From: Elusimicrobiota bacterium
Lineage (GTDB): Bacteria; Elusimicrobiota; Elusimicrobia; FEN-1173
DNA: 39,434 nt
Direction: 5' to 3'
Assembly (NCBI GenBank): GCA_028278255.1
Contig: JANQER010000241.1
Coordinates: forward strand, 1 to 39,434
A program made the translations under genes and the position numbers. Of the stretch, positions 7,101 through 29,812 are shown in pieces. The notes beneath the pieces are model-generated. The model saw only the letters and a program-made list of their open reading frames with translations. It made no database searches and was not told the origin of the DNA. The first letter of the stretch is position 1, and every line of letters starts with the position of its first letter.

Positions 7101-7112
7101 AACCAATGCAGT

Positions 7113-16800: not shown

Positions 16801-17291
16801 TTTGGACTTTGGTCTTTGGTCTTCGGTCTTCGGTCTTCGGTCTGACTGATATTGTCAATTATTTTTGCAATATTGCGTTGCGCTTCCTCAATTCCATGGG
16901 CATCCTGAATATGAACCACAAAAGGCGCATTAGGATCTGCTGACACATGTATTTCCCGAACAGAACCATAGACAGAAACAAGGCTGGCCAATCTATTGCC
17001 AACAGTATGAGCAGGGGACAATGAAGGAACCGAACTGCGGCTATTGATTGGGAAAGTTTGATGGGATGCCTTAGTGGACAGCTGTTGAATGGGTTGAACA
17101 GGGGAACTGGACAACAAAGCCAATTGAGCCTTTAAATGATTTTGCCGTTGGCCTCTCTGATCAAGCGCTTGCCTGCGTTCTTTCCAAAAACCGATTTCAG
17201 CAGAATACACGCCAATGACATTGGTGAGCACCAACACCACAGCCAAAAAAACACTCAATACTGATTTTGTCAATGTGCTAATAGTTATCAT
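7866..17291 (-). CDS. giant multidomain membrane protein (3141 aa): signal anchor, large ectodomain, CPBP-type membrane protease motifs, degenerate GHKL ATPase, phosphoglycerate kinase domain, SAM-dependent methyltransferase domain, HisKA/HATPase_c histidine kinase, unassigned C-terminus
   Basis: One stop-free frame. Motifs, N to C:
- hydrophobic N-terminus, aa 1-30
- EEAVFR (nt 14742-14759) and FLFCH within a polytopic block
- YENALK (nt 13662-13679) plus GGVGMPAARMALEAMG (nt 13383-13430)
- PGK motifs from RVDFN to STGGG (nt 11361-12533)
- VLVVGPGTGID (nt 10497-10529) and SNSPFF (nt 10287-10304)
- H-box NAHDLTSPMS (His codon 9852-9854), N-box LANIIQNAQ, G1 SDNAQGI, G2 RGLGLHIA
The ATG at 17291 has no obvious Shine-Dalgarno sequence. 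A TATAAT (reverse strand, 17299-17304) lies 7 nt upstream. Confidence 0.85.
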   Translation of the reverse strand: MITISTLTKSVLSVFLAVVLVLTNVIGVYSAEIGFWKERRQALDQRGQRQNHLKAQLALLSSSPVQPIQQLSTKASHQTFPINSRSSVPSLSPAHTVGNRLASLVSVYGSVREIHVSADPNAPFVVHIQDAHGIEEAQRNIAKIIDNISQTEDRRPKTKDQSPKSTERRPKAEDQRSKTGELELQQIKNQKSILIGLEGASGAFAVDAYRDFSDDDITKGLADYFLKEGYIGGPEYSALTIDNQSLVELWGIEDLSTYHTNIQAFKDSLKNKTKVQALVSDLKSSLMAQKQKVYSPELKQYEKKATAYQNHEEALGQYVKYLLLNQKAQIKNQKFKNSCLLIQALDREDSLDFGVVEKQRHALIKKLCAKLSSDQLNHLVQQSMDYKTGRMAYGAYYDLLRRLCQKQGMDLKSLAQFNAYIDYVKLSEKMNPNQLLEELSQLEKAVAQSLAVTPEQKKLVTATRYVHLLEKLIHNQMTPKDWEEYKQQTKDDSPIRQTGIIPGGKNPKTIDQDLPRNLLKPFEQFCALAIKRNKSLVDNLLNKQRAKGKETGVGTARAVALGKQPLPMTTDQLPVISVLVAGGFHTKGITELLHQKNASYMVVTPQITAVPKNHDYLNVFARDPIPLEKMLAGEKIFLAAERVMVQDVSQIKAMRGQVFQSLNRFFVPAFESALKNTDMSELEAGDKALTEVLDIEQSFKMEIKQKITDNGFLSVFRYKLGKTRCHLALMTKEKLSMAEHQLEKLGFEHDIHTADITVNGQDYVLVLFKSSLFRFALVESLSYWLEMIQSFIFQNQFIVNVFGSVYGHGARSAAADILEPFVMPMKRFKTWQGRGIYYLLLGVWEEAVFRVGGLIGLPVIFMSYGFDPGTAFVIGLMWSVPVFLFCHTLMRCLVQYKKNVLDWKRVWLEILSEFGILVIAKARLLRAAKEMGKKQRGFLIRFYVSSFVQSRFVLTLVLNAVFMLGLYWLDLFSADAILQVFVLSHYSLPLIFLSFGVVVAMRFARDFWYAVQKSYDEKAQLIVNSVAVTGHGGRFALMNQMANMSFVLGYVFRSDPEQKKLLEKQFRGLDEQFRIYHAQVIGFVRSFLLKGQFRKKDVDELYRIWIKWLKDYQSYLQKLWGKMQNIQKGKGYLVTIKRGLDIVGIVLRMFDPKLAQIQEIDLKKLLNNHEFHTKNGEFKLDNLTIGHQKVLADPMLLCAALEWIYENALKVNQEQGMEKALKSIDLSVVEAGNGFVELIVSNPKAFPRKFLSPLHDWMGLQPLFQVDYARRAAQVNTEDTESDSFYSGGVGMPAARMALEAMGATITAENSKDGTRAITRIKLKSVQKKSITGKRVLTQTFQLGAWIRQMMPDFLVLHKFAQCLRHCARFCRRKSHGLLRLGPTAPTEKFGLRAWPGLFHGMKFEIRWIPVQELLPSMGWMKYMPIQYVVNWITGIDQVSPKDYFKNISVGAGLAPALINQPSGSGQGSARPYEVEYPLSMAMASMNENKGGEDHSQLPDILTFNIRNCLQILMDPEMKSHWPNALKAMSLYVKSLGFQGNVPPEFRDFFLGIWGYQWEEEIERLGDNLDSEMVRGFIDELRQSNAMSLYMVPPHAIKGKTFVVRVDFNDVHFDPKEEKIDDIRLNASVNTMQYILNNGGKVVLVTHSGRPSGEGVEEAYDISHVRNAVSQLMNRDVHLMRGKEVRQKRYAVVTDEIIDHIHGMSAGDVAMLDNTRFDWREQSDDPAEREALAYQVSRLGDVFVLDGFPVSHRSDTTVVEMLKTSMPSVKGFWMERELLIHQKMLRYIKHDKRGSMAAIFGGIKEDKIPLIQDFSEKLRKGDKILIGGKLAGIVQERQYNKWIGNLKIRGVEVVLAEDDVDGLDIGPRTIEKYKRALDEVEAVYWNSPQGNFEDEPYHRGSYAIAHHIKGRIDNGELFAFVSGGETAPLVKAALDLDEEKRVALQQEEREIGETGLNMPVLTISTGGGTSTDYFAYERNIGEDSLWGISPYYLMCVEQGNVHGHNIDDLLEKVKNMPAYELLKALELHQAELVEEEVDQASGLTVMRVRVPERQNPVDPPVGIDVLSNELGPTRGFELLFDENGYLISIFPVVSEELLGEHSDGDECPYHYFDFSEFYFEIPGFDDEQAINKWIRFQKECAQSKEAITRYREERGLSEYVIKAPEPENKPFVFAEFVGVEQGALRLVEFGLEDRGFGQALEKIYDSQSENPRVIFPVFPTVYSPAAGDNYLADRIYMLTVYSVGQALGEDKEGGVLVVGPGTGIDAWVAWLGTNSNRDIYAVGINPFEVANMRFFAKQAGFRVTAKVGNNVLNEKREPVFGDKKIALVCSNSPFFETLTEEERKERIGKLKRLTGATDLESLSDEALLTCFEVIRKEYVRQGVMRPKKLAGFHDGDRGSFISELAQGVSQLPGIEEGFLVLWGEESNGVVEEVLTFNGLDIIETFPDPEYSHNLVYLVGVQDMNGRTLKEAKLAAAANAHDLTSPMSVLGAQLKFLSDDNALVQADRNWMSGFYDLSKNLKTFLEQVQNGKTIADVNKANKQIKNILSKIDEVYLFEMAREKLTKIYQELSVDDFSAKEDALKIVFVQYVLRDYFAAFRDEEELVDLDHLFDVIFAGHAHEVVNRENTVIHYGGGHQILKTNKLALFRALANIIQNAQYFIAEMKDDITMRGLLEKQGLQISEREVELQDISGKMRIETEIVNQGKDMEIRISDNAQGIPLKIRDSVFERGVSSKLDTGGRNLSRGLGLHIAKKCIERCNGTISFKTRHVDEYPQDHGTTFVITLPLGKSSLSEEEWIQYVLDQTVLPQVKKLSDETEKLNPRIEVDIDPVQVKNQVKLRLFLGESEEAEDVSWQNVEGLLDTLTLPSPIKGEGQFQATEGLVRGMNFQNLEELREVLGVLQSRIRSNVKVIEERAKECDALIRVLGLNVGLMSGLGQKREMVFYIGVLQRTLDIVEDLSPQKILALMAQGFEFGFGLAAHEKAKIHSINEIKSDQPCVVHVPGNLLNIERTEALTVAKTLLKKNGEAPVVVVTDDDKLSVSEALGSESQRLIVMSNNEVKCSVDKVIERLVSDQKYQSMDFERKGVQLQVLSPVIMNWTVTPQYSQAAVLLQIIGNMVIKIATDEFDRLRKLSEMIGSNA
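12920..12941. repeat. GC-rich palindrome GGGCGGGGCAAGCCCCGCCCC read through in frame inside the giant ORF
   Basis: It is near-identical to 37708-37728 inside the glcD-glcE-like ORF. Both are translated as AGLAPA. Confidence 0.8.
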
Positions 17292-17621: not shown

Positions 17622-17819
17622 GACTGATTTTCCCTCTTATATCTCTTAAGTAGCCCTAAAAATTCTTTAAGCCTATTTCGCAACTGATATAAGACATTAC
17701 AATATTGATACTTTTTTATAAATTTTATATTGTGTGTCATATAATTTCTTTTGTGCTTGTTTCTTGGTTATTGGTTATTATTTGGTTATTGTTTCTTGGA
17801 ACTTGTAATTTTTAAGACT

Positions 17820-18758
17820 ATGAACACACGCAATGTGATTATTATTGGATCAGGTCCGGCAGGATTTACAGCTGCTATTTATGCGGCGCGGGCCAATTTG
17901 CAGCCTGTGGTGATTGCCGGATTCATGAAGGGCGGTCAGTCAGGCGGGCAGCTCATGACCACCACCGATGTGGGCAACTTTCCCGGATTTCCCGAAGGCA
18001 TAGAAGGGCCTGCGCTCATGAACCGCATCAGAAAACAGGCGCTCAACTATGACACGGAAGTTTTTGACAAAGATGTTGTCAAAGTTGACTTTTCCGAGAC
18101 GCCTTTTAAAATCTGGACTGAAGACGAAGAAATGTCCGCCAAAACCGTGATCATCTGCACCGGGGCTTCAGCCAAGAGATTCCACACGGAAGCTGAAAAT
18201 CGTTTTTGGAACAAAGGCATCTCAGCCTGCGCCACATGTGACGGGGCCCTGCCTCTCTTTCGCAACAAACCCATTGTGGTGATTGGCGGCGGGGACACAG
18301 CCATGGAAGAAGCCCTTTATTTGTCGCGGTTCGGTTCCCAGATTATCCTGGTGCACCGCAGAGAACAATTCCGCGCGTCAAACATCATGCTGCAGCATGT
18401 GAAAAACAACAAAAAAATCATATTGAAAACCCCTTATGTCTTGGAAGACACAATGGGAAGCCATTTTCTGGAAAGAGTCAAGCTTAAAAATGTCAGCACA
18501 AAACAAAAAGAAGAGGTCCCGGCCAATGGGCTTTTTCTGGCCATAGGGCATCAACCCAATACAGACATTTTTAAAGGCCAGATTGATCTGGAAGAAACAG
18601 ATTATATCAAAACCGACGGCCACACCCGCACCAATGTGCCTGGTGTTTTTGCTGCAGGCGACTGCGTGGACCATGTGTACCGCCAGGCCATAACAGCCGC
18701 TGGCATGGGCTGCATGGCCGCCCTCCAAGCCCAAAAACACCTACAAAACAACAACTAG
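17820..18758 (+). CDS. trxB: thioredoxin-disulfide reductase
   Basis: The conserved start MNTRNVIIIGSGPAGFTAAIYAARA is at ATG 17820. The track ORF starts at TTG 17751 and reads through a GGTTATT repeat. Present are the redox-active CATCDG, the NADPH motif VIGGGDTAMEEA and GVFAAGD. Confidence 0.93.
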   Translation: MNTRNVIIIGSGPAGFTAAIYAARANLQPVVIAGFMKGGQSGGQLMTTTDVGNFPGFPEGIEGPALMNRIRKQALNYDTEVFDKDVVKVDFSETPFKIWTEDEEMSAKTVIICTGASAKRFHTEAENRFWNKGISACATCDGALPLFRNKPIVVIGGGDTAMEEALYLSRFGSQIILVHRREQFRASNIMLQHVKNNKKIILKTPYVLEDTMGSHFLERVKLKNVSTKQKEEVPANGLFLAIGHQPNTDIFKGQIDLEETDYIKTDGHTRTNVPGVFAAGDCVDHVYRQAITAAGMGCMAALQAQKHLQNNN

Positions 18759-18805
18759 TTTCCCGTCCATTTTAAAAAATTATGCTCCTGTTCAGGTCTC
18801 CTCTG

Positions 18806-18919
18806 TTTTTTTTGTAATTGCCTGATTGATCAGGCGCATTTCTCAATAGACAATAAACAATTATTGAAAAACGCCCGATAAATCTATCCATATCCGGCTT
18901 TAGACGGAGGGCAATGACA
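18806..18919. repeat. MITE-like ~110-bp element with terminal inverted repeats TTTTGTAATTGCC / GGCAATGACA
   Basis: The left end is TTTTGTAATTGCCTGATTGATCAGGCG. The right part is AAAAACGCCCGATAAATCTATCCATATCCGGCTTTAGACGGAGGGCAATGACA. The same composite element occurs at 35428-35533, and a rearranged version at 36867-37030. Confidence 0.75.
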
Positions 18920-19076
18920 GGGACATGAGCAGTTATTTTAAATTTTCTTTTTTGTTTAGAATTTAGAGTTTAAAACCCCTCCCCTCCCCCTTTTTCATCC
19001 CATTGATATAAAGTTTACCGCCATAACTCCTATATATATTATATGAGACACCCCATGAAGATGAAAATTTGTTCAT

Positions 19077-21221
19077 GTGAAGAGGTATGCTGTGGATAAT
19101 ATAACAGCCACAAACTTATTCTTAATGGCCGGGCTTATAGACAAGGATGAGGTCAAAACCGTTCTTGAGGAAAACAGCAAGAAATCCGGTGAAAAGATTG
19201 AAGACACCATGGTCCGCCTGCACTTTGCTTCGGAGCAGGAGCTGACCAAAGTCTATGCCAAGCATTTGGGGGTGCCTTATATTGAGCTGAGCTGCATCCG
19301 GGCTGACCAAAAAGCCATTTCCTCAGTGCCCATGACGCTGGCCAACCAGCACAATGTTCTTCCTGTATGGATAGAAGACAACACCCTATTTCTTGCCATG
19401 GAAAACCCTGAAAACAAAACAGCCATTGAATCAGTCCAATCCACCACAGGCATGAATGTCAAACCCCATATGTGCGCGCCAATTGATATTGCCTCTGCCA
19501 TTGATGAATATTATCATGTGGATGAATCCATTAACGAATACATCAAAAATGTGTCTTACCGGGAAAGCATTGAACTGCTCTCAGGCAGTGTGTCTTCAGC
19601 GCCGGCCTCAAAGCAAGACGAAGCTGTTCAGCATTTCCTCAATGCGGTTCTGTTCCAAAGCCTCTCCAATCACGCCGAATCAGTGATGCTTCAACCCAGA
19701 CAAAAAGACCTATTGATTCTCAATCAAATTGACGGCATATCCTATGAAGCCATGCATGCGCCCAAATGGATCATCAAGCCATTCGTGTCTTATATCAAAG
19801 CACAATGCCGCATGCCCGCTTCTGAAACCAGTGAACAGCAGCAAGGCCAAATAAAAATCCGCGTGGAAGAAAATGTGTTTGAATGCAAAATAATTGTTCA
19901 ATCCGGTGTTTACGGCAGCCATGTGTACATACGGTTTATTAATCCACATAAACGTTTTTTGGCCCTGGATGAACTGGGCTTCAGTCCTGACCTTGTGTCT
20001 GATATCAAACACACAATACACAGCGCCAAAGGAACTCTTTTGCTCTGCGGCACCTCAGGCAGCGGCAGGACAACCACCCTATACAGTCTGCTGGCAGACG
20101 CTCTCCGGCACAAACAAATCGTGACTTTGGAAAATCCGGTTGAACACCCTCTGGCAGGCGCTAAACAAGTATGTGCGAATGAATCCAGTGGAATATCACG
20201 CTCCCTGTATCTGGAAACAATTTTCAGCGTGCAGCAGGACATTGTTTATGCCGGAGACATCCTTGACAGAAAAATCGCTGAAAATATACTGCAGGCCTCA
20301 TTAAAAAACCGTTTGGTCATGGGATCCATGCACGCAAAAAGTTCCATTGCGGGCATCCGGCGCCTGTTGGACATGCCGGTCCCGCCTGACCTGGCCGCGA
20401 CTGGCCTGTGCGGCGTCCTGACGCAAAAGCTTGTTCGCACCCTCTGCGATCATTGCCGGACCCCGCATGAGCCCAGCGAAGAGGATGCTCAAAAAATTCA
20501 GGCCCTCATTGGCCGGGAACCGGATTTTGTTTTGTACAAAGGCAAGGGGTGCGTCAAATGCCGCCGCACCGGATACCAAGGACGAATTGGGATATTCGAA
20601 TTTTTGAAAATCACTGATCCTGTACGCGCCATCATCAGACAAAACCCGGACAGCGCCCAATTAAAAGAAGCTGTTGAAAAAAACACCATGAAAACGCTTC
20701 TGAATGATGCCATGGACAAACTTCAGCAGGGCATCACCACGTGGGAAGAAATCAAGCGGGTGATTCTCACTGACTGCGATGATCTCCCTGCTGCTTCAGG
20801 GGATGACTCACTTGCCGCTTCATTGCCGGACACAAATGACTTCAAAGGATTCAAAATTCACATATGCGATGATGAACCGGCTGTGGCGCATCTCTTTGAA
20901 AAACATTTGAAGCATCAAGGTTTTTGCACAAATGTCTCTTACAACGGCAAACAAGCCCTTGAAAAGATCGCTGTTGAAAAGCCTCATCTGCTGGTCATTG
21001 ATGTCATGATGCCGGAACTGAACGGACTGGAAGTGATCAAAACACTGAAGCAAGACGTGACCACTGCTTTTATTCCCATTATGATCATTTCCAATAAAAA
21101 CACAGCCCGGGACAAGCTGAAAGGATACGAATCAGGCACAGACGATTATCTGCCAAAACCGTTTTTACCGCAAGAACTGCTGATCAGGGTAAAATCTTTG
21201 CTCAAAAGAGTATATGTATGA
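19077..21221 (+). CDS. GspE/PilB-family secretion/pilus ATPase homologue with degenerate catalytic motifs, fused to a C-terminal response-regulator receiver domain
   Basis: 714 aa with a GTG start.
- T2SSE_N-like N-terminus: LFLMAGLIDKDEV...FASEQELTKVYAKHLGVPYIEL
- Walker A reads GTSGSGRTTT (Arg codon AGG 20067-20069 where Lys is expected)
- Asp box LENPVE, Walker B region YAGDILD, His box GSMHAKS
- tetra-Cys CDHC...CVKC is retained
- REC domain about nt 20850-21215: ICDDEP, LLVIDVMMPELNG, IISNK, LPKPF. Confidence 0.85.
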   Translation: MKRYAVDNITATNLFLMAGLIDKDEVKTVLEENSKKSGEKIEDTMVRLHFASEQELTKVYAKHLGVPYIELSCIRADQKAISSVPMTLANQHNVLPVWIEDNTLFLAMENPENKTAIESVQSTTGMNVKPHMCAPIDIASAIDEYYHVDESINEYIKNVSYRESIELLSGSVSSAPASKQDEAVQHFLNAVLFQSLSNHAESVMLQPRQKDLLILNQIDGISYEAMHAPKWIIKPFVSYIKAQCRMPASETSEQQQGQIKIRVEENVFECKIIVQSGVYGSHVYIRFINPHKRFLALDELGFSPDLVSDIKHTIHSAKGTLLLCGTSGSGRTTTLYSLLADALRHKQIVTLENPVEHPLAGAKQVCANESSGISRSLYLETIFSVQQDIVYAGDILDRKIAENILQASLKNRLVMGSMHAKSSIAGIRRLLDMPVPPDLAATGLCGVLTQKLVRTLCDHCRTPHEPSEEDAQKIQALIGREPDFVLYKGKGCVKCRRTGYQGRIGIFEFLKITDPVRAIIRQNPDSAQLKEAVEKNTMKTLLNDAMDKLQQGITTWEEIKRVILTDCDDLPAASGDDSLAASLPDTNDFKGFKIHICDDEPAVAHLFEKHLKHQGFCTNVSYNGKQALEKIAVEKPHLLVIDVMMPELNGLEVIKTLKQDVTTAFIPIMIISNKNTARDKLKGYESGTDDYLPKPFLPQELLIRVKSLLKRVYV

Positions 21222-21311
21222 TGAGCAAAGGCCAATCCCATCCGGCGAGCAGGGACCATACCTCGCGGCATGGAGAGCATAGAGCATGGGAATTGACTGT
21301 TGGAGGATTTT

Positions 21312-23648
21312 ATGGGCGACAACCTTAATCTGGCGGAATTGTTTCTGAAAGCCGGGCTCATTGACAAAGATGAGATGCAAATAGTGATTGAGGCCAATAA
21401 AAAGAATCCCGGAGAAAAAATCAGCGATACACTTGTGCGTCTGAAATTCGCCACTGAACAAGATGTGACCAAAGTGATTTCCCAGCAGTTCAACATTCCC
21501 TTTATAGACCTGTCCGGCACAGACATTGATCCCAAAGCCGTTCATTTTATCCCGCTGAGCCTGGCCAGCCAATCCAATATTTTCCCTGTCAGAGAAGAAG
21601 ACAACATCCTGCTCCTGGCCATGAAAGACCCGCATGACATGGAAGCCATCAATATGGCAGGTTTTTCCTCAGGCCTGACCATCAAGCCATTTTTGGCAGC
21701 TGCCACACAAATCGAAAAAATGATTGTCCGCTATTATCATGTGGAAGAATCCATTGCGGATTACATGAAATCCATTGATACACCTCAGGGGATTGAACTC
21801 ATCACAGACAGCCGCATGACAGAAATAGATTTGAAGGACTTAAGGAAAAAAAGCGAAGCTGTGCCCATCATTCAAATGGTCAATGCCCTGATTCATCAGG
21901 GCATCACCCAGAATGCCAGTGATATTCATATAGAACCGCAGGAAAAAATTATTTTTGTGCGCAACCGTATTGACGGCCTTCTTCACAAATCCCTGCAAAT
22001 CCCCAAATGGGTCCAACCGGCTCTGATTTCCCGCATCAAAATCATGTCCGGCATGGACATCTCTGAAAAACGCGTGCCGCAGGATGGCCGTATAAAAATA
22101 AGGCTGGAAGAAAAAACCATTGATTTGCGCATTTCCTGCCTGCCAACACAGCACGGGGAAAAGATCGTGATCCGTGTTTTGGACACGAACAGAAAATTAC
22201 TCACTATCGGAGAATTGGGCTTTCAGCCGGAACTGGCCGGACAAGTGGCCAATGTCATTAACCAGCCGCAAGGCATTCTGTTGGTCTGCGGACCCACAGG
22301 CAGCGGCAAAACCACAACATTGTACGGACTTTTGACTGAAATCGCCAAGAAGAGCCATAATATTGTCACTTTGGAAGATCCCATTGAATATGTTTTGTCA
22401 GGCGTTAACCAAGTCCAAATGAATGAAAAAGCCGGTCTGACTTTTGCCAAATCTCTCAGATCTGTGCTGCGACAGGACCCGAATGTGATCTTTGTGGGAG
22501 AAATTAGGGACAGTGAAACAGCAGAGATTGCTCTGAGGGCCTCCATGACAGGCCATTTGGTTTTCAGCACGCTTCATACAAATGACGCCGCCTCCACCAT
22601 CAGCCGGATATTGGATCTTAAAATTGAACCCTATTTGGTGGCCTCTTCTGTCACAGGCATCCTGTCTCAGCGGCTGGTCAGGACCATATGCCCGCACTGC
22701 CGGGAAGAACACAACCCAGACCGCAAAATCATAAAAAAAATAGAGGACAAGCTGGGAGAAGAAATATACTTTCTTCTCTATCACGGCAAAGGCTGCGACA
22801 AATGCCAAAACACCGGCTATCAGGGACGCATGGGCATTCATGAGCTTCTCCTCATCACCCCTGAAATCCGTGAATCCATCCGCAACCAAACCGCTTCTGA
22901 AGGCAAGATTCGTCAATTGGCCAAGCAAGAAGGCATGAAAACAATCCTGGATGACGCGCTTGAAAAAGTCAAACAGGGCATGACCACCATCGAAGAAGTG
23001 GAAAGAGTTGTTATCTTTGCCGAGGAAAAGGATTCCTCTTCTTACCCCTTCATATGCCCGCAATGCAAAAAAAATATTGAAAAAGAGTGGAAAACATGCC
23101 CTTATTGCAGTTATATTTTATTGGGGGGCAGCGGAGCGGAACAAACAAAAGGCCAAGGCGTGCCTGACAGTACGGCAAGGGCGCTGATCAACAAAAATGC
23201 GCGTGTTCTTCCAATGCCTGAGTCCATCAGCATGCCCTTGCCGCCTCACAATGGGAACAATGATTTCAGCGGTTACAGAATACTGCTGGCAGATGATGAT
23301 GAAGAAATCGGCCGAAGCCTGGTGATGCATTTGCTTAAAAATAAATTTGCCGTGAGCATAGCCACCAATGGCCGGGAAGCGTTGGACAATATTGCCAAAG
23401 AAAAGCCGCATCTGCTGCTCACGGACCTGGTGATGCCGAAAATGGATGGATATGAACTGATTCAAAAAGTACGGCAAAACAAAACCACGGCCTCGCTGCC
23501 CATTATTGTCTTGTCTCAAAAAGGAGCCGTGGAGGACAGGCTGAAAGGATTTGAGCTCGGATCAGATGATTATCTGCCCAAGCCGTTTGCACCGGATGAA
23601 ATGTTGTTTAGAATTAAAGCGGTTCTCAAACGCACATACAGCATATAA
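21312..23648 (+). CDS. GspE/PilB-family secretion/pilus ATPase (canonical motifs) with an internal zinc ribbon and a C-terminal response-regulator receiver domain
   Basis: The track ORF starts at TTG 21300; ATG 21312 lies 5 nt after GGAGG.
- T2SSE_N-like N-terminus
- Walker A GPTGSGKTTT (22290-22319), TLEDPIEY, FVGEIRDSETA, VFSTLHTNDA
- CPHC...CDKC tetra-Cys, plus an extra CPQC..CPYC ribbon (about 23050-23120)
- REC domain about 23274-23640: LLADDDEE, LLLTDLVMPKMDG, VLSQK, LPKPF. Confidence 0.9.
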   Translation: MGDNLNLAELFLKAGLIDKDEMQIVIEANKKNPGEKISDTLVRLKFATEQDVTKVISQQFNIPFIDLSGTDIDPKAVHFIPLSLASQSNIFPVREEDNILLLAMKDPHDMEAINMAGFSSGLTIKPFLAAATQIEKMIVRYYHVEESIADYMKSIDTPQGIELITDSRMTEIDLKDLRKKSEAVPIIQMVNALIHQGITQNASDIHIEPQEKIIFVRNRIDGLLHKSLQIPKWVQPALISRIKIMSGMDISEKRVPQDGRIKIRLEEKTIDLRISCLPTQHGEKIVIRVLDTNRKLLTIGELGFQPELAGQVANVINQPQGILLVCGPTGSGKTTTLYGLLTEIAKKSHNIVTLEDPIEYVLSGVNQVQMNEKAGLTFAKSLRSVLRQDPNVIFVGEIRDSETAEIALRASMTGHLVFSTLHTNDAASTISRILDLKIEPYLVASSVTGILSQRLVRTICPHCREEHNPDRKIIKKIEDKLGEEIYFLLYHGKGCDKCQNTGYQGRMGIHELLLITPEIRESIRNQTASEGKIRQLAKQEGMKTILDDALEKVKQGMTTIEEVERVVIFAEEKDSSSYPFICPQCKKNIEKEWKTCPYCSYILLGGSGAEQTKGQGVPDSTARALINKNARVLPMPESISMPLPPHNGNNDFSGYRILLADDDEEIGRSLVMHLLKNKFAVSIATNGREALDNIAKEKPHLLLTDLVMPKMDGYELIQKVRQNKTTASLPIIVLSQKGAVEDRLKGFELGSDDYLPKPFAPDEMLFRIKAVLKRTYSI

Positions 23649-23738
23649 CTTATTTATTATTTATTTTTTTATACAATTTATTGAAAAAAAGTTACAATAT
23701 AACCGCATTTCAAGAATCAACAATAACGAGGACTTAAT

Positions 23739-24110
23739 ATGGCACAAAAAATACTCATAGTGGATGATTCAAGATTAACCAGAGCGATTATCAAAAATGC
23801 TCTGTCAGAAGCAGGATTTGAAGTGGTTGGCGAGGCGGAAAACGGCCGTGTGGCTGTTGACATGTTCAACCAATTAAAACCTGACCTGATCACCATGGAT
23901 CTGATTATGCCGGACGTGGACGGCATGCAAGCCACAAAAGAAATCCTGGGGAAAGACCCGCAAGCCAGGATTCTTGTGGTCACCTCACTGGGACAAAAAC
24001 TTCTGGAAGAAGATGCCATGAAAACCGGCGCACGCGGCATGATTGCCAAACCTTTTCAGCCACAAGAACTCTTAAGCGCTGTCAAAGAAGTTCTTGACAA
24101 AACATCCTAA
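23739..24110 (+). CDS. cheY: single-domain CheY-like response regulator
   Basis: 123 aa with ILIVDDSRL, LITMDLIMPDVDG, VVTSLG and IAKPF. GAGGA lies upstream of the ATG. Confidence 0.85.
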   Translation: MAQKILIVDDSRLTRAIIKNALSEAGFEVVGEAENGRVAVDMFNQLKPDLITMDLIMPDVDGMQATKEILGKDPQARILVVTSLGQKLLEEDAMKTGARGMIAKPFQPQELLSAVKEVLDKTS

Positions 24111-24214
24111 CCCGGGTATACCGGGAATGTAAAATTCACTGGTGTGTATTAAAATGCAAAATAAAGATTTGAAATCTGCAAACAGCTTGTTTGCCGTCTA
24201 AACAAGGATTCACT

Positions 24215-24844
24215 ATGGAAACAGTTAAATTGCCCCAAGAACAAATAGAAGATCTTATGGAAGTCGGAAATATCGGCGCTGGCAATGCTGCTTCAGGCTT
24301 GTCAGATCTCATCCATCACCGCTGTGTCATCGACATCCCCATGGTATCGTATGTCAACACGGAAGGCATAAAAAAAGTGCTTGAAATGGAAGACTCGTTT
24401 GTTGTGACCCTTCACATCAAAATCATGGGCGACATTCCAGCGCTCATGTTTGTGGTCATGAAAAGAATTTATGCGCAAACCATCGTCAAATACATGACCC
24501 GTGAAGGCATTGAGGCCGTCGGCCGGAACTTCAATTTCACCGCGCAATTTGCCCTCAAACAGCTCGGCGAACTTTTAACAAAATCATTTTTTGACGCCAT
24601 CAATCAATTGCTCATGACCAAAGCCAAATACGCCATGCCGGAAATCATCATGGACAATTGGACATCAGCCGTGGATGCCATTATTAAGCTGGTCGGCAAT
24701 TCCAACAAAGAGGTGGAACATTTGTTCATTCATTCCTCCTTTTTTGACCCGGAAAAAACTTTTGAAGGGAAATTTGTCTATGTGCTGAACATTGAATCAC
24801 AAAAAATCATTCTGAACAGACTTAGAATGCTCCTAAACAGGTGA
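24215..24844 (+). CDS. CheC/CheX/FliY-family CheY-P phosphatase-like protein
   Basis: The track ORF starts at TTG 24191; ATG 24215 gives METVKLPQEQIEDLMEVGNIGAGNAASGLS. The first active-site motif E-x2-N-x22-P is intact (EVGN...22 residues...P). The second pseudo-repeat reads E-x2-T-x19-P (GELLTKSF...MP). Confidence 0.75.
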   Translation: METVKLPQEQIEDLMEVGNIGAGNAASGLSDLIHHRCVIDIPMVSYVNTEGIKKVLEMEDSFVVTLHIKIMGDIPALMFVVMKRIYAQTIVKYMTREGIEAVGRNFNFTAQFALKQLGELLTKSFFDAINQLLMTKAKYAMPEIIMDNWTSAVDAIIKLVGNSNKEVEHLFIHSSFFDPEKTFEGKFVYVLNIESQKIILNRLRMLLNR

Positions 24845-24850
24845 GGAAAA

Positions 24851-25216
24851 ATGAGCTCAAAAATATTGGTTGTTGATGATTCAAGACTGGCGCGGACTCT
24901 GATCAAAAATGCGCTGAAAGCCTCCGGATTCGAAGTGGTGGGAGAAGCCCAAAACGGGCGGGAAGCCATTGAACTTTTCTCTCAGCTTAAGCCGGATCTG
25001 GTCACCATGGACATGATGATGCCTGAAGTGGACGGCATGGAAGCCACCAAGGAAATCATTAAAACAGATGCGCAAGCCAAAGTGATTATGATCACTTCAG
25101 TCAACCAGCAGCTGATGAATGAAGATTTTCAAAGTGTTGGCGCGCGCGCCACTTTGGCCAAACCTTTTGAACCACAAGACCTTGTCAATGCCATCAATGG
25201 CATACTCAGTTCTTAA
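24851..25216 (+). CDS. cheY: single-domain CheY-like response regulator
   Basis: 121 aa with ILVVDDSRL, LVTMDMMMPEVDG, MITSVN and LAKPF. It starts 6 nt after the cheC-like stop, behind GAGGAAAAATG. Confidence 0.85.
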   Translation: MSSKILVVDDSRLARTLIKNALKASGFEVVGEAQNGREAIELFSQLKPDLVTMDMMMPEVDGMEATKEIIKTDAQAKVIMITSVNQQLMNEDFQSVGARATLAKPFEPQDLVNAINGILSS

Positions 25217-25306
25217 GATACGACAGGATTCTACATGTAGCACATGTAGAAAATGTAGAATTTAGAACTGGCATGACAAAATAATTTCTAGAAACCTTCA
25301 GAATTT

Positions 25307-26362
25307 ATGATACCGAAAATACTCATTGTGGATGATGCCCGGCTTACCCGGTTGATCATCAAAAACATACTCATCCAGGCCGGCTTCAATATTGTGGGTG
25401 AAGCTGTCAACGGACGTGAGGCCATTGACATGACCCGTCAATTGAAGCCTGATGTGGTCACGGTTGATCTGACCATGCCGGAAATGAATGGCATGGAATC
25501 CATCCAAGGCATTCTGGAAGCCCATGCCAAAGCCAGAATTTTGATTGTCACAGCGCTTGGCGGACAAAAACTCCTTCAAGAAGACGCGAAAAAAGCCGGT
25601 GCCTTGGGCATGATCAACAAACCCTTCAAACCAACTGAACTGCTGGGCGCCATTGACTCTCTCATGAAATATGAAACACCAAAACCAGCCGAATCCCTTA
25701 TTGCACCCAGCAGTGAGATCCCGTCAGCTTTCATCAAATCTCAGCCCATCCCCTTGAGCGAAGAACAAATAGAAAACTTAATGGAAGTGGCCAATATTGG
25801 CTCCGGCAATGCAGCCTCGCAGATTTCAGAACTCATCCATGAACGGTGCCTCATCAGTCTGCCGCAAGTGGCTTATTCGGATTTTAAAACCATCGAAGAA
25901 ATCATGAACCTCAATGACAGTTATGTGGCAGCGCTTCATATCAAAATCATGGAAGATATTCCGGCTGACATATTGGTGGCCATTAAAAGGTCTTACGCGC
26001 ATTTCATTGTGAAACATCTCACAAAAGGAAGCGTTGACACTTCTGTCTCTGATCTCACATTCACCGCTCAATTCACTCTCAAGCAAATGGGAGAGCTCAT
26101 GACACGCGCTTTTTCTAAAGCCATCAATGAATTCCTCTTAACTGACTCTACTTACAAACTCCCGGAAATCATATTGGACACTTGGACAACCACAACGGAT
26201 TTTATTTATAAAAAGCTCACCCGCCCGGATGAGCTGCAAATGATTGTACACTGCGCGTTCTCAAACCCTGAAAAAAATTATGACGGGAAATTCGTGTACA
26301 TCCTCAATCAATACGCCCAAAAAACCATCCTTGATAGAATCGAACTATTGTTGGACAGATAA
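25307..26362 (+). CDS. CheY receiver fused to a CheC-like phosphatase domain
   Basis: 351 aa.
- N-terminal REC: ILIVDDARL, VVTVDLTMPEMNG, IVTALG, INKPF
- about 30-aa linker
- CheC-like domain LSEEQIENLMEVANIGSGNAASQISELIHERCLISLP: E-x2-N-x22-P intact, second repeat E-x2-T-x19-P as in 24215..24844. Confidence 0.8.
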   Translation: MIPKILIVDDARLTRLIIKNILIQAGFNIVGEAVNGREAIDMTRQLKPDVVTVDLTMPEMNGMESIQGILEAHAKARILIVTALGGQKLLQEDAKKAGALGMINKPFKPTELLGAIDSLMKYETPKPAESLIAPSSEIPSAFIKSQPIPLSEEQIENLMEVANIGSGNAASQISELIHERCLISLPQVAYSDFKTIEEIMNLNDSYVAALHIKIMEDIPADILVAIKRSYAHFIVKHLTKGSVDTSVSDLTFTAQFTLKQMGELMTRAFSKAINEFLLTDSTYKLPEIILDTWTTTTDFIYKKLTRPDELQMIVHCAFSNPEKNYDGKFVYILNQYAQKTILDRIELLLDR

Positions 26363-26424
26363 AAAAGTCAAATTCTAAACTCTAAATCCTAAATAATAAA
26401 AACAAAAATGATATAATTTTGTTT

Positions 26425-28431: not shown

Positions 28432-28552
28432 AACTCTAAACACTAAATTCTAAACCCTAAACCGGATAAACTGGAAATAACCAAATTTCAAGGAACAATA
28501 ACCAAATAATAGCCAATAACCAAGATACAATAATCAAACAAAGGCCAACCTC

Positions 28553-29665
28553 ATGAACAACACTGACCCAAAAAAACCTCTGCTTCAGGCGAACAGACAA
28601 ACGGTTTTTCGCGTTTTCTTTTTCAGTGTTTTTCTTTTCCTGATTTACCAGCTCATTCAGATTCTTTCCCCCTTTTTCACAGCCATTATGGCGGCTGTCA
28701 CACTGACCTTGGTGTTTTATCCGCTGCATGCGCACATGTGCCAAAAGCTGACGTGCAAAACCAACCTGGCCGCAGGCATCAGCACCGGCTTCATCCTTTT
28801 TATTGTGATTGTCCCAACCATTTTGTTCTTATGGCTGTTCATGAAAGAAGCTTCAGCGCTTTACCCTTTTGTACAAAATCAGCTCTCTGAGCTAAAGATC
28901 ACACCGCCTGAGATGCTGAGAGAAAAATTTCCCGCCTTGGTGCTCTTAAAAGACAAAATCCACCATTTTCTTGTGTCCTGGCAAATAGACCCTCAGGACA
29001 TCATTCTCAAAAACATAGACCAGATCGGCACCCAAATTTCTGCATACGGCGCGCGTATTGTGAAAAACGTGTTCTTCTTTATATTTGATATTATCATCAT
29101 TGTCTTCTGCTTATTCTTCTGCTTTCGTGACGGTGAAAAAATAGTCAATTTTATTGTGGAACTCATTCCCATGGAAAAAACGCACAAAGAACACATTGCT
29201 GAAAGACTGGACCAAACACTCTCAGCGGTTGTGCGCGGCACTTTTATCACAGCCTTTGTGCAGGGCATACTGGCTGGCGCCGGCTATGCCGTGGCAGGCG
29301 TCAACTTTGCCGTGGTACTGGGGTTTACCACAGCCTTCACAGCTTTGATTCCGTTCGTGGGCGCTGCAGCTGTCTGGATATCTGTCAGTATTTTTCTTGT
29401 CATCAAAGGATACATTTTGAAAGCTGTACTGCTTAGTATTTGGGGAGCGGCTGTGGTCAGTTTGGTGGACAACATTATGAAGCCCTATCTGATCGGACAA
29501 AAAGCCAAACTTCCTATTTTCCTCTTGTTTTTTGGTATTCTGGGCGGATTGCAGGTTTATGGATTTATAGGTATCATAATAGGGCCTTTGATGATTGCCA
29601 GTGTCCTGGCATTTGCTAAGATTTATAAAGCTCAAATCCATAAGGGCAAAGGATTGACAACTTGA
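28553..29665 (+). CDS. AI-2E family (PerM/UPF0118) membrane transporter
   Basis: 370 aa, polytopic. The C-terminal family motif is VDNIMKPYLIGQKAKLPIFLLFFGILGGLQVYGFIGIIIGPL. Confidence 0.82.
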   Translation: MNNTDPKKPLLQANRQTVFRVFFFSVFLFLIYQLIQILSPFFTAIMAAVTLTLVFYPLHAHMCQKLTCKTNLAAGISTGFILFIVIVPTILFLWLFMKEASALYPFVQNQLSELKITPPEMLREKFPALVLLKDKIHHFLVSWQIDPQDIILKNIDQIGTQISAYGARIVKNVFFFIFDIIIIVFCLFFCFRDGEKIVNFIVELIPMEKTHKEHIAERLDQTLSAVVRGTFITAFVQGILAGAGYAVAGVNFAVVLGFTTAFTALIPFVGAAAVWISVSIFLVIKGYILKAVLLSIWGAAVVSLVDNIMKPYLIGQKAKLPIFLLFFGILGGLQVYGFIGIIIGPLMIASVLAFAKIYKAQIHKGKGLTT

Positions 29666-29670
29666 AACAA

Positions 29671-29795
29671 TTTTAGATTTGCGGTTTTTGATTGAAAAAC
29701 GCGAAAACATTCCGTTGCGCTGTAGGGAACGGTCGCGACCGTTCCCTACAACAAATATTTTTCAATCAAAAATCGCAAATCTAAAATCAAAAATA
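29671..29795. repeat. nested palindromic element (outer GATTTTT-family arms, inner perfect 28-bp palindrome)
   Basis: The outer arms TTTAGATTTGCGGTTTTTGATTGAAAAA and TTTTTCAATCAAAAATCGCAAATCTAAA are near-perfect reverse complements. The centre GTAGGGAACGGTCGCGACCGTTCCCTAC (29722-29749) is a perfect palindrome. The element lies between the AI-2E gene stop and the trmH-like start. Confidence 0.85.
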
Positions 29796-29812
29796 TTCAT
29801 AAAGGACCCTTT

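What the first reader, a model, noticed from the sequence alone, without database searches (positions are those of the whole stretch)
19077..23648. Tandem PilB/GspE-type ATPases, both fused to C-terminal receiver domains, one with dead-looking catalytic motifs
Seen: two adjacent paralogues share the architecture T2SSE_N-like domain, ATPase core with a tetra-Cys zinc site, then a C-terminal REC domain.
- The second copy has canonical motifs: GPTGSGKTTT, TLEDPIEY, VGEIRDSETA, STLHTNDA.
- The first copy reads GTSGSGRTTT (Walker A Lys to Arg, codon 20067-20069), LENPVE (Asp box Asp to Asn), AGDILD (Walker B Glu to Asp) and GSMHAKS.
- Both REC domains keep the acidic pocket, the phospho-acceptor Asp, the Ser/Thr and the Lys.
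- The second copy has an additional CPQC..CPYC ribbon between the ATPase and the REC.
- No pilC, pilT, pilin, secretin or gsp structural genes are in the window.
Established: these ATPases act as hexamers, and the Walker A Lys and Walker B Glu are needed for hydrolysis. Control of PilB by separate CheY-like proteins (PilG/PilH type) or by c-di-GMP through the N-terminal domain is known.
Inference: this could be a phosphorylation-gated motor. A catalytically impaired paralogue might act as a regulatory subunit or decoy, for example in mixed hexamers, with the response regulator wired directly onto the ATPase.
Basis: partly seen in the sequence, partly recalled or inferred. Interest (0 to 1): 0.75.

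Follow-up and report, generated by a model that had tools for sequence, protein, structure and literature searches.

The report
Receiver-fused pilus ATPases, one catalytically dead
An uncultivated Elusimicrobiota bacterium carries two adjacent pilus-motor (PilB-type) ATPase genes that each end in a phosphorylatable receiver domain; one looks like a working motor, and the other is an old, intact copy that has lost its catalytic residues but kept its docking and receiver parts, so it probably acts as a regulator.

Summary
ORF A (19077-21221) and ORF B (21300-23648) both score as MshEN + T2SSE + Response_reg.

- **B is canonical.** It belongs to a sizeable, apparently uncharacterised PilB-REC family: at least 76 clusters at 50% identity.
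- **A is degenerate.** It deviates at 3 of the 7 universally conserved catalytic residues (R271K, K331R, E395D). It also deviates at the pore loop (E400K) and part of the His box. 305 of 316 homologues keep all seven.
- **A is not an assembly duplicate or a decaying pseudogene.**
  - Synonymous sites between A and B are saturated.
  - The ORF is intact and has a good ribosome-binding site.
  - The AlphaFold2 model is confident (pLDDT 88.7).
  - Divergence is concentrated in the catalytic N2D and CTD core. The N-terminal docking domain, zinc site and receiver stay conserved.
- **A has one relative.** P0174 shares the rare R271K and K331R states and sits directly after a CheA kinase gene.
- **Context.** B is followed by a conserved CheY-CheC-CheY-CheY/CheC module. 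Syntenic relatives carry only one PilB-REC.

Best reading: B is a phosphorylation-gated motor and A is a phospho-controlled pseudo-ATPase acting as decoy or brake. The mixed-hexamer idea is not supported, because N2D, which forms the main inter-subunit contact, is A's most diverged domain. Verdict: a new variant of a known kind, of moderate to high interest.

The parts
19077..21221 (+). ORF A: PilB/MshE-type pseudo-ATPase with a C-terminal receiver (714 aa; probable start GTG 19092, giving 709 aa)
   Evidence: - Pfam: MshEN + T2SSE (216 bits) + Response_reg.
- phmmer to G. metallireducens PilB: E = 5e-85.
- AF2 pLDDT 88.7. Foldseek TM 0.86-0.89 to PilB cores.
- Ribosome-binding site GAAGAGG.
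19077..19529 (+). A, N-terminal N1D (aa 1-151, MshEN/GSPII-like): the best-conserved part of A relative to B
   Evidence: - A-B identity is 54% (aa 1-63) and 41% (aa 64-151). B against its own orthologues is 48% and 51%.
- 13 of 15 family-invariant columns are kept.
- The strict c-di-GMP motif is absent.
19611..20759 (+). A, N2D + CTD ATPase core (aa 179-561) with degenerate catalytic residues; the zinc tetra-Cys site is kept
   Evidence: - Changes, in G. metallireducens numbering: R257Q, R271K, K331R, D354N, E395D, R397L, E400K, T411K/G412N/H413R.
- Kept: E353, E357, R286, D398, H420.
- Invariant columns kept: N2D 12 of 37, CTD core 35 of 71, Zn/C-terminal part 19 of 23.
20067..20069 (+). A, Walker A Lys to Arg codon (R331)
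   Evidence: Coordinates computed from the ORF. The state occurs in 6 of 316 homologues.
20256..20258 (+). A, catalytic Glu to Asp codon (D394 of A; equivalent to E395 of G. metallireducens PilB)
   Evidence: The state occurs in 4 of 316 homologues.
20856..21191 (+). A, receiver domain (aa 594-705); phospho-acceptor D642 at codon 21000-21002
   Evidence: - Pfam Response_reg: 81.9 bits against a cutoff of 30.2.
- DD, D, S and K are all present.
- 14 of 19 invariant columns are kept.
21300..23648 (+). ORF B: canonical PilB/MshE-type ATPase with a zinc ribbon and a C-terminal receiver (782 aa; probable start ATG 21312, giving 778 aa)
   Evidence: - Pfam T2SSE: 440.5 bits.
- All 16 catalytic and neighbouring ATP-site positions checked carry the residue held by most of 316 homologues.
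- Orthologues at 55-60% identity share the architecture.
- Ribosome-binding site GGAGGA.
23052..23114 (+). B, CPQC..CPYC zinc ribbon in the linker between ATPase and receiver (aa 585-605); absent from A
   Evidence: - Pfam Zn_ribbon_3: 22.4 bits, below the cutoff of 27.
- Conserved in orthologues.
23280..23615 (+). B, receiver domain (aa 661-772); phospho-acceptor D709 at codon 23424-23426
   Evidence: Pfam Response_reg 98.8 bits. Conserved residues present.
23739..24110 (+). Stand-alone CheY-like receiver (123 aa)
   Evidence: Pfam Response_reg 103.8 bits. Best NCBIfam hit is a CheY model. Syntenic in L001, L002 and L009.
24191..24844 (+). CheC-like putative CheY-P phosphatase (217 aa)
   Evidence: - Pfam CheC: 26.2 bits against a cutoff of 22.
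- NCBIfam CheC: 77 bits, below the cutoff of 250.
- A single E-x3-E-x2-N-x22-P site.
24851..25216 (+). Second stand-alone CheY-like receiver (121 aa)
   Evidence: Pfam Response_reg 104.9 bits.
25307..26362 (+). CheY-CheC fusion protein (351 aa)
   Evidence: Pfam Response_reg 87.6 bits plus CheC 22.8 bits. ExxN-x22-P site at aa 160. The same fusion is syntenic in L001 and L002.
18759..19076 (+). 318-nt AT-rich spacer upstream of A; probable promoter region of the A-B-cheY-cheC cluster
   Evidence: - The gaps between A, B and the four downstream che genes are 6-90 nt.
- No + strand terminator-like site falls in a spacer.
- Only consensus-level promoter matches are seen.

Best explanation
Shown:
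- B is a catalytically competent PilB/MshE-type extension ATPase carrying its own C-terminal phosphorylatable receiver. It belongs to a widespread but uncharacterised PilB-REC family.
- A is an ancient paralogue that keeps the whole fold, the N-terminal docking domain, the zinc site and a canonical receiver.
- A has replaced core catalytic residues, mostly by charge-conserving swaps (K331R, E395D, R271K). It has also lost the pore-loop Glu thought to act on PilC.

Inferred:
- B's motor activity, or its engagement with the pilus platform, is gated by phosphorylation of its fused receiver. This is the cis version of CheY-like proteins that bind PilB in trans.
- A still binds the same partner as B through its conserved N1D, and perhaps still binds nucleotide, but it cannot drive assembly. 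It therefore acts as a phosphorylation-controlled decoy or brake, and as a competing phosphate acceptor.
- The kinase is unlinked. It is probably CheA-like, as found next to A's closest relative.
- The three CheY-like proteins and two CheC-type phosphatase domains downstream shape and reset the phosphate flow.
For: - Architecture and motifs.
- Rarity of A's changes: 305 of 316 homologues keep all seven universal catalytic residues, and A misses three (residue roles from PMC5424180).
- K327 and E391 of M. xanthus PilB are required for ATPase activity and pilus assembly (PMC5544727).
- Selective rather than uniform divergence. The ratio (1 - identity A-B)/(1 - identity orthologue-B) is about 1.1 in N1D, 1.4 in the Zn subdomain and REC, 2.1 in N2D and 2.7 in the CTD core. 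Invariant columns kept: 13/15, 19/23, 14/19, 12/37, 35/71 respectively.
- The 714-codon ORF is open despite saturated synonymous divergence. It has a good ribosome-binding site.
- The fold is confident: pLDDT 88.7 and TM 0.86-0.89 to PilB cores.
- The degenerate state is old and kept. P0174 is 35% identical to A. A and P0174 are the only two of 316 with R271K, and both carry K331R. They group together with 98.5% NJ bootstrap support.
- P0174 lies directly after a CheA gene.
- The CheY-CheC-CheY-CheY/CheC module is conserved after PilB-REC in L001, L002 and L009.
- A second, independent canonical-plus-degenerate PilB-REC pair lies within 8.5 kb in L006.
- Precedents acting in trans:
  - Phosphorylated PixG binds PilB1, and PixH counteracts it (PMC11181946).
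  - DrdR binds PilB and PilT and raises their ATPase activity (PMC13507683).
  - An ATPase-dead PilB still signals (PMC5544727).
Against: - No pilus or T2SS structural gene and no kinase is in the window or in any related locus examined. That B is a pilus motor is therefore inferred from homology only.
- B scores below NCBIfam's trusted cutoffs for both PilB (592.7 against 675.65) and GspE (585.3 against 630.25).
- K to R and E to D are conservative. The published PilB mutants are Ala substitutions, so residual activity in A is not excluded.
- A has no orthologue closer than 35%, so purifying selection could not be measured by dN/dS.
- The fused receivers resemble OmpR/PhoB-type rather than CheY-type receivers, which weakens the CheA link.
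- It is unknown whether P0174 is in the same genome as A (GC 50-54% against about 47%).
- The extra similarity of A's first 63 residues to B (54% against 43% to B's orthologues) rests on few sites.
Confidence: 0.45

Rival explanations
1. Mixed hexamers: A co-assembles with B into hetero-hexamers as a non-catalytic regulatory subunit. This would resemble the alpha/beta arrangement of F1-ATPase. The two receivers would set the stoichiometry or the firing order.
For: - The two genes are adjacent and on the same strand, 78 nt apart.
- A keeps the fold.
- A keeps arginine finger R286, the Mg-binding E357, and R455.
- Interactions between paralogous pilus ATPases have been reported (review PMC11656802).
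Against: - The principal inter-chain contact in PilB hexamers is N2D of one chain against CTD of the next (PMC5424180).
- N2D is A's most diverged domain: 28% identity to B and 12 of 37 invariant columns kept.
- Syntenic relatives work with a single PilB-REC.
- A's relative P0174 sits next to a CheA gene on a 4.1-kb contig whose upstream side shows no canonical PilB partner; the contig ends about 100 nt after the gene.
Confidence: 0.15
2. Signalling proteins rather than motors: the PilB-REC family, A and B included, has been recruited as nucleotide- and phosphate-sensing signalling ATPases. They would work away from any pilus machine. A would be a scaffold or phosphate sink in a CheY/CheC phosphorelay.
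For: - Every PilB-REC locus examined lies among signalling genes, with no pilus genes. The neighbours are CheY/CheC, REC-PAS-GGDEF-EAL, or histidine kinases and response regulators.
- B is below the PilB and GspE equivalog cutoffs.
- M. xanthus PilB signals independently of ATPase activity (PMC5544727).
Against: - B keeps every catalytic residue, both arginine fingers and the pore-loop residues. These would be unnecessary for a pure signalling role.
- pilB is often unlinked from other pil genes (my own knowledge, not tested here).
- A pure phosphate sink would not need to keep a 590-aa ATPase fold, its zinc site and its N1D.
Confidence: 0.17
3. A is a functionless duplicate drifting towards pseudogene status.
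For: - A has half the T2SSE score of B.
- It has a long branch.
- It has no orthologue in 1.84 billion representative proteins other than the 35% relative P0174.
- Syntenic relatives lack it.
Against: - The 714-codon ORF is open although synonymous sites are saturated.
- Divergence is domain-selective. N1D, the Zn site and REC are kept.
- The ribosome-binding site is strong.
- The predicted fold is confident.
- The rare R271K and K331R states are shared with a 35%-identical relative, so the degenerate form has persisted for a long time.
Confidence: 0.06
4. A is still an active, perhaps slow, ATPase with an unusual active site. The pair would be two motors with different kinetics, as proposed for PilB and TfpB in Acinetobacter baylyi.
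For: - The substitutions at universal residues are all charge-conserving: K to R, E to D, R to K.
- E353, E357, R286, D398 and H420 are kept.
- Two extension ATPases can serve one pilus (PMC11656802).
Against: - Only 6 and 4 of 316 homologues carry K331R and E395D. Every K331R carrier lacks at least one further universal residue.
- A also lost R257, R397, E400 and the T411-G412-H413 triad.
- Walker A K to R generally abolishes hydrolysis in P-loop NTPases (established knowledge, not tested for PilB).
Confidence: 0.1

Closest known systems
Synechocystis Tax1 system: PixL (CheA-like) phosphorylates PixG and PixH; PixG~P binds the motor PilB1 (PMC11181946)
   Same: - A chemotaxis-like phosphorelay acts directly on the PilB extension ATPase through a receiver domain.
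- A second receiver protein antagonises the first by competing for phosphate.
   Different: - Here the receiver is fused in cis to the C-terminus of PilB. It is OmpR/PhoB-like and has no PATAN domain.
- The putative antagonist is itself a dead PilB paralogue.
- No kinase or receptor is in the locus.
- CheC-type phosphatases are present.
Pil-Chp system of Pseudomonas aeruginosa (PilG/PilH) and Xanthomonas DrdR (PMC10519157, PMC13507683)
   Same: - Stand-alone receiver proteins control pilus extension and retraction motors.
- DrdR binds PilB and PilT physically and raises their ATPase activity.
- The logic of two antagonistic response regulators is shared.
   Different: - Those regulators act in trans and are encoded with pil or chp genes.
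- Here the receiver is part of the ATPase polypeptide, and the locus holds no pil genes.
c-di-GMP control of MshE/PilB through the N-terminal MshEN domain (Vibrio MshE, Myxococcus PilB, Thermus PilF)
   Same: The same N-terminal MshEN/GSPII fold and the same ATPase family. In both, a regulatory input is wired directly onto the motor protein.
   Different: - The strict 24-residue c-di-GMP motif (RLGxxLVxxGxxxxxxLxxxLxxQ) is absent from both A and B.
- The regulatory module here is a C-terminal receiver.
- Some relatives (L003, L007) do sit beside REC-GGDEF-EAL genes.
ATPase-deficient M. xanthus PilB (K327A) acting as a signalling protein for EPS production (PMC5544727)
   Same: A PilB that cannot hydrolyse ATP can still carry out a regulatory function upstream of a chemosensory (Dif) pathway.
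   Different: That is an engineered point mutant of the single motor. Here a natural, separately encoded pseudo-ATPase paralogue is maintained beside the active one.
Paired pilus ATPases: PilB/TfpB in Acinetobacter baylyi, PilT/PilU in several species (review PMC11656802)
   Same: Two paralogous PilT/VirB11-family ATPases cooperate on one machine. Possible hetero-oligomers are discussed in the review.
   Different: Nothing in that review describes either partner as catalytically inactive, and none carries a receiver. Here one partner lacks catalytic residues.

Membership tests
PilB/GspE/MshE secretion ATPases (Pfam T2SSE PF00437, PilT/VirB11-like ASCE ATPases) | Sequence match to the T2SSE core above the curated cutoff | tested here: met
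   A scores 216.5 bits and B scores 440.5 bits against a cutoff of 24.9. phmmer to PilB structures gives E = 5e-85 for A.
PilB/GspE/MshE secretion ATPases (Pfam T2SSE PF00437, PilT/VirB11-like ASCE ATPases) | N-terminal GSPII/MshEN domain and tetra-cysteine zinc site (marks the PilB/GspE clade, not PilT) | tested here: met
   MshEN scores 65.6 and 67.8 bits against a cutoff of 23.1. CxxC...CxxC is kept in both.
PilB/GspE/MshE secretion ATPases (Pfam T2SSE PF00437, PilT/VirB11-like ASCE ATPases) | Universally conserved catalytic set: Walker A Lys, catalytic Glu, Asp-box Glu, two Arg fingers, His-box His (PMC5424180) | tested here: not met
   B keeps all of them. A has K331R, E395D and R271K, while 305 of 316 homologues keep all seven. 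A is therefore a member by descent and fold, but not by active site.
Type IVa pilus assembly ATPase PilB (NCBIfam equivalog TIGR02538) / T2SS GspE (TIGR02533) | Score above NCBI's trusted cutoff for the equivalog | tested here: not met
   B scores 592.7 against 675.65 (PilB) and 585.3 against 630.25 (GspE). A scores 313 and 312. The alignment to the PilB model is full-length, whereas the alignment to GspE starts at aa 82.
Type IVa pilus assembly ATPase PilB (NCBIfam equivalog TIGR02538) / T2SS GspE (TIGR02533) | Presence of the partner machinery (pilC/pilM-Q/pilins, or gspF/L/D) in the genome | not testable with these tools
   None is in the 39-kb window or in related loci. The rest of the genome is not available: the window genome is not in the GTDB-representative collection.
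Two-component receiver domains (Response_reg PF00072) | Match above cutoff, plus the acidic pair, phospho-acceptor Asp, Thr/Ser and Lys | tested here: met
   Scores are 81.9 and 98.8 bits against a cutoff of 30.2. A has D598/D599, D642, S672, K694; B has D665-667, D709, S739, K761.
Two-component receiver domains (Response_reg PF00072) | Actual phosphorylation by a cognate kinase | not testable with these tools
   No kinase is in the operon. A CheA gene is adjacent to relative P0174. An HATPase_c module lies in the divergent giant ORF.
MshEN-type c-di-GMP receptors | Tandem 24-residue motif RLGxxLVxxGxxxxxxLxxxLxxQ (as given in PMC7288161) | tested here: not met
   The strict motif is absent from both proteins. 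Only a relaxed second repeat is found in B (KISDTLVRLKFATEQDVTKVISQQ).
CheC/CheX/FliY CheY-P phosphatases (the two downstream CheC-like domains) | Pfam CheC match and the active-site motif D/S-x3-E-x2-N-x22-P | tested here: inconclusive
   Pfam CheC scores 26.2 and 22.8 bits against a cutoff of 22. The NCBIfam CheC equivalog scores 77 and 66 bits, below its cutoff of 250. Each protein has one site reading E-x3-E-x2-N-x22-P. The catalytic E and N are present, but the first position is Glu rather than Asp/Ser.
Pseudoenzymes (pseudo-ATPase paralogue) | Loss of catalytic residues with retention of fold and long-term maintenance | tested here: met
   Catalytic losses. Fold. Intact ORF with saturated synonymous sites. 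Domain-selective conservation. Rare states shared with the 35%-identical P0174.
Pseudoenzymes (pseudo-ATPase paralogue) | Demonstrated lack of catalysis | not testable with these tools
   Requires an ATPase assay of the purified protein.

The most novel reading that the evidence does not exclude
Canonical-plus-dead PilB-REC pairs form a self-contained, phosphorylation-driven switch for a type IV filament. The active motor and a catalytically dead look-alike compete for the same platform docking site. A Che-type kinase and CheC phosphatases decide which one is engaged. A pseudo-motor would then replace, or add to, a retraction ATPase or polarity module as the brake. The recurrence of such pairs in at least two lineages (window; L006) would make this a general, undescribed control principle for pilus motors.
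Probability: 0.2. Interest if true: 0.8.

Novelty: new variant of a known kind. Interest (0 to 1): 0.6.

Why it matters
How chemosensory and two-component signals reach the type IV pilus motor is an open question. In the studied systems (Pil-Chp, Tax1, Frz) it depends on separate CheY-like proteins whose contact with PilB is hard to pin down.

A natural fusion of a canonical receiver to PilB works like a Rosetta stone. It says that receiver and motor act together, and it offers a single polypeptide in which phosphorylation-dependent control of ATPase activity or hexamer state can be measured directly.

The dead paralogue keeps its docking domain and its receiver. It would be, as far as my searches show, the first natural pseudo-ATPase regulator in this motor family.

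The family is widespread in metagenomes, with at least 76 clusters at 50% identity. I found no paper that describes it.

Tried and rejected
- **Assembly duplicate:** rejected. The longest exact nucleotide match between A and B is 14 nt, and a second assembler reproduces the junction.
- **Recent tandem duplication or gene conversion:** rejected. Third-codon positions are saturated everywhere, including the well-conserved N-terminus. A is equidistant from B and from B's orthologues, at 39-40%.
- **[quoted passage not shown]:** not valid. The representative library is clustered at 50% identity, so B stands for its whole orthologue group. The NJ tree places A + P0174 as sister to B + orthologues with only 69% support.
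- **Word-index search with A** found nothing closer than 28% and missed even B. The exhaustive search was needed.
- **Genome contigs and metagenome-contig scans** with the A + P0174 alignment returned only unrelated PilB or receiver genes. The window genome is not among the GTDB representatives, so pilus structural genes and kinases elsewhere in the genome could not be looked for.
- **Look-up of P0001** in the contig index returned no record.
- **Tandem canonical/degenerate arrangement as a general rule:** not supported. Degenerate P0177, P0037 and P0313 have no canonical neighbour. Only the window and L006 show a pair.
- **c-di-GMP input through MshEN:** the strict motif is absent.
- **Same-genome origin of P0174 and the window:** composition is inconclusive.
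- **Literature searches** for REC-fused PilB/GspE or pseudo-ATPase PilB paralogues found no description.
- **Hetero-hexamer modelling** could not be run. Only single-chain prediction is available, and chimeric inputs are not accepted.


Full report
**What is there**

The region holds two same-strand ORFs: A (19077-21221, 714 aa) and B (21300-23648, 782 aa). Good Shine-Dalgarno sequences precede an internal GTG at 19092 (GAAGAGG) and an ATG at 21312 (GGAGGA). These starts match the 709-aa and 778-aa forms held in the protein database.

Pfam gives both proteins the same architecture: MshEN, T2SSE and a C-terminal Response_reg. The T2SSE score of A (216.5 bits) is half that of B (440.5 bits). B has an extra CPQC..CPYC zinc ribbon between ATPase and receiver. 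A and B are 37% identical over their whole length.

Both receivers carry the acidic pair, the phospho-acceptor Asp (D642 in A, D709 in B), Ser and Lys. Both ATPase domains keep the four zinc cysteines.

No pilus or T2SS structural domain occurs in any other ORF of the window. No pilin signal motif occurs in any frame.

**Not an artefact**

- The two genes share no exact DNA match longer than 14 nt, and third-codon positions are saturated.
- A Logan assembly of run SRR20820740 reproduces window 20421-23741, across the A/B junction, at 100% identity.

**Organism and context**

DNA polymerase I of the window is 59-62% identical to proteins labelled Elusimicrobiota. The window is therefore most likely from an uncultivated member of that phylum.

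Downstream of B lie a CheY-like protein, a CheC-like protein, a second CheY-like protein and a CheY-CheC fusion. Housekeeping genes follow (ispG, an AI-2E transporter, a SpoU methylase). trxB lies upstream. Gaps from A to the last che gene are 6-90 nt, and no + strand terminator-like site falls in a spacer.

The locus therefore encodes five canonical receivers and two CheC-type domains but no kinase. Each CheC-type domain has one E-x3-E-x2-N-x22-P site.

The same order is kept in L001 and L002, whose PilB-REC is 58% identical to B although their GC content is 62% against 47%: trxB, PilB-REC, CheY, CheC, CheY, CheY-CheC, ispG, AI-2E, SpoU. It is partly kept in L009. Those loci have a single PilB-REC.

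**How unusual is the fusion?**

It is not unique.
- B has about 30 full-length relatives at 38-60% identity with the same architecture among its best 120 hits. A sister group carries a C-terminal double zinc ribbon but no receiver.
- Among the best 150 representatives (clusters at 50% identity) found with A in an exhaustive search of 1.84 billion proteins, 76-77 carry a C-terminal receiver and 6 carry an N-terminal one.
- In every locus examined, these genes lie among signalling genes and never beside pilus genes. The neighbours are CheY/CheC, REC-PAS-GGDEF-EAL, or histidine kinases and response regulators.
- Six literature searches and a 2024 review of PilB regulation gave no description of such a fusion.

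**How degenerate is A?**

I used the residue roles defined for G. metallireducens PilB (PMC5424180) and scored 316 full-length homologues.
- 305 keep all seven universally conserved catalytic residues.
- A has R271K (first arginine finger), K331R (Walker A) and E395D (catalytic Glu). These states occur in 2, 6 and 4 of the 316.
- A also has R257Q, R397L, E400K (the pore-loop Glu proposed to act on PilC) and T411K/G412N/H413R.
- A keeps E353, the Mg-binding E357, R286, D398 and H420.
It is not diagnostic.
- The three changes at universal positions are all charge-conserving. This hints, as inference only, that nucleotide binding is kept while hydrolysis is lost.

In M. xanthus PilB the equivalent Lys and Glu are required for ATPase activity and pilus assembly (PMC5544727). 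Those experiments used Ala substitutions.

**Is A decaying or maintained?**

Several independent lines point to maintenance.
1. The ORF is open over 714 codons, although synonymous sites between A and B are saturated.
2. Divergence is domain-selective:

| Domain | Identity A-B | Identity of B to its orthologues | Family-invariant columns kept in A |
|---|---|---|---|
| N1D (aa 1-63 / 64-151) | 54% / 41% | 48% / 51% | 13 of 15 |
| N2D | 28% | 66% | 12 of 37 |
| CTD core | 39% | 77% | 35 of 71 |
| Zn / C-terminal part | 46% | 62% | 19 of 23 |
| Receiver | 44% | 61% | 14 of 19 |

   The domains that are normally best conserved are the ones that have drifted in A. The normally most variable N1D has not drifted.
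3. AlphaFold2 predicts all four domains with confidence (mean pLDDT 88.7). The model superposes on PilB and PilF cores with TM 0.86-0.89.
4. P0174 is a 742-aa PilB-REC, 35% identical to A, from the same sequencing run. It is the only other sequence with R271K. It shares K331R and several derived N1D residues with A. The two group together in 98.5% of NJ bootstraps. The degenerate state is therefore old. Long-branch attraction may inflate the bootstrap value, but the shared rare states argue for a real clade.

**Age of the duplication**

A is equally distant (39-40% in the core) from B and from B's orthologues. The NJ tree puts A + P0174 as sister to B plus its orthologues with 69% support. So the split is at least as old as that orthologue group. 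Either the L001 and L009 lineages lost the copy, or it lies elsewhere in their genomes.

**Hints about the signal**

- P0174 lies directly downstream of a CheA gene (Hpt, dimerisation, HATPase_c, CheW). That gives a candidate kinase type for this clade.
- Composition does not settle whether that contig belongs to the same genome as the window.
- The fused receivers resemble OmpR/PhoB-type receivers, while the stand-alone ones resemble CheY.
- The strict c-di-GMP-binding motif of MshEN domains is absent from both A and B. The receiver may therefore have taken over the regulatory role that c-di-GMP plays in MshE and some PilB proteins. This is inference.

**Recurrence**

In L006, from a 10-Mb genome, a canonical PilB-REC (P0070) lies 8.5 kb from a second PilB-REC with a degenerate Asp box, Walker B Glu to Asp and His-box His to Arg. 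That copy is closest to P0177 (Walker A Lys to Glu). This is an independent degenerate lineage.

Other degenerate members (P0313, P0231, P0037, P0035) exist. The contexts looked up for P0177, P0037 and P0313 show no canonical neighbour.

**Mechanism**

Shown:
- a canonical PilB-type ATPase fused to a canonical receiver;
- an old, maintained paralogue without catalytic residues but with its docking domain and receiver kept;
- a conserved CheY/CheC module.

Inferred: phosphorylation of B's receiver gates motor activity or engagement. This is the cis form of what PixG~P does with PilB1 (PMC11181946) and DrdR does with PilB and PilT (PMC13507683). A would compete with B for the N1D partner and for phosphate, acting as a decoy or brake.

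N1D is the region held to contact the stator complex, and it is the most species-specific part of PilB (PMC11656802). That A keeps it is the main argument for competition at a shared site.

The mixed-hexamer idea is less likely. The N2D-CTD packing contact that builds the hexamer involves A's most diverged domain.

Other rivals remain open: a purely signalling role for the whole family, a slow but active A, and a decaying gene. They are rated in the report sections.

**Family membership**

Both proteins belong to the PilB/GspE/MshE clade by sequence, fold, N-terminal domain and zinc site. B falls just below NCBIfam's equivalog cutoffs for both PilB and GspE, so it should be called PilB/MshE-like, not PilB. 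A fails the catalytic-residue criterion and is best called a pseudo-ATPase paralogue.

**Verdict**

A phosphorylation-gated motor with a regulatory dead paralogue is plausible. Decoy is favoured over mixed hexamer. Nothing biochemical is shown.
- This is a new variant of a known kind.
- Interest is 0.6. A specialist would find a natural receiver-PilB fusion family and a maintained dead paralogue noteworthy. The fusion makes the link between phosphorelay and pilus motor directly testable.

Noticed in passing
window 7866-17291 (- strand): A single 3141-aa ORF with atypical composition: GC 41% and GC3 39%, against about 47% and 51% for its neighbours. Pfam recognises only a phosphoglycerate kinase domain (aa 1597-1833) and an HATPase_c domain (aa 2644-2788). 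An H-box-like AHDLTSPMS lies upstream of the latter. This is an odd giant fusion, and a possible kinase for the nearby receivers.
   Followed up: partly
relatives P0069, P0070, P0072, P0175, P0177 and others: Many PilB-REC relatives carry Glu instead of the phospho-acceptor Asp in the fused receiver. These may be natural phosphomimics or pseudo-receivers. Some of the roughly 30 cases may be alignment artefacts in long Patescibacteria proteins.
   Followed up: no
relatives P0090-P0171: A large sister group of PilB-like ATPases (about 640 aa) ends in a double zinc ribbon (PF12773) instead of a receiver. They are labelled Nitrospirae or Deltaproteobacteria. B's CPQC..CPYC ribbon looks like a remnant of this module.
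   Followed up: no
relatives P0035, P0037, P0039, P0041; L020 for P0037: The pair Walker A K to R plus catalytic E to D recurs in PilB-like proteins without a receiver (P0035, P0037, P0039); P0041 carries only K to R. P0037 sits alone among housekeeping genes on a 980-kb contig. This suggests repeated evolution of charge-conserving dead PilB paralogues.
   Followed up: partly
L006 8326-9390 and 1594-3174: A fragment of a PilB-REC gene lies near an IS240-like transposase gene, between two full PilB-REC genes. It has a zinc subdomain and an interrupted receiver.
   Followed up: no
window 17751-30640 compared with L001 8959-19375: The gene order trxB, pilB-REC, cheY, cheC, cheY, cheY-cheC, ispG, AI-2E transporter, spoU is conserved between genomes of 47% and 62% GC. 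L001 adds a VIT1 gene and lacks copy A.
   Followed up: partly
window 25307-26362: A CheY-CheC fusion protein (351 aa), a receiver joined to a CheC-like domain with one ExxN-x22-P site, is conserved in L001 and L002.
   Followed up: partly
window 6669-7769: A PIN-domain ORF (6669-7100, +) abuts a DUF4143 ORF (7113-7769, -). The second is possibly the C-terminal part of an AAA-type ATPase gene. Both lie next to the start of the giant ORF.
   Followed up: no
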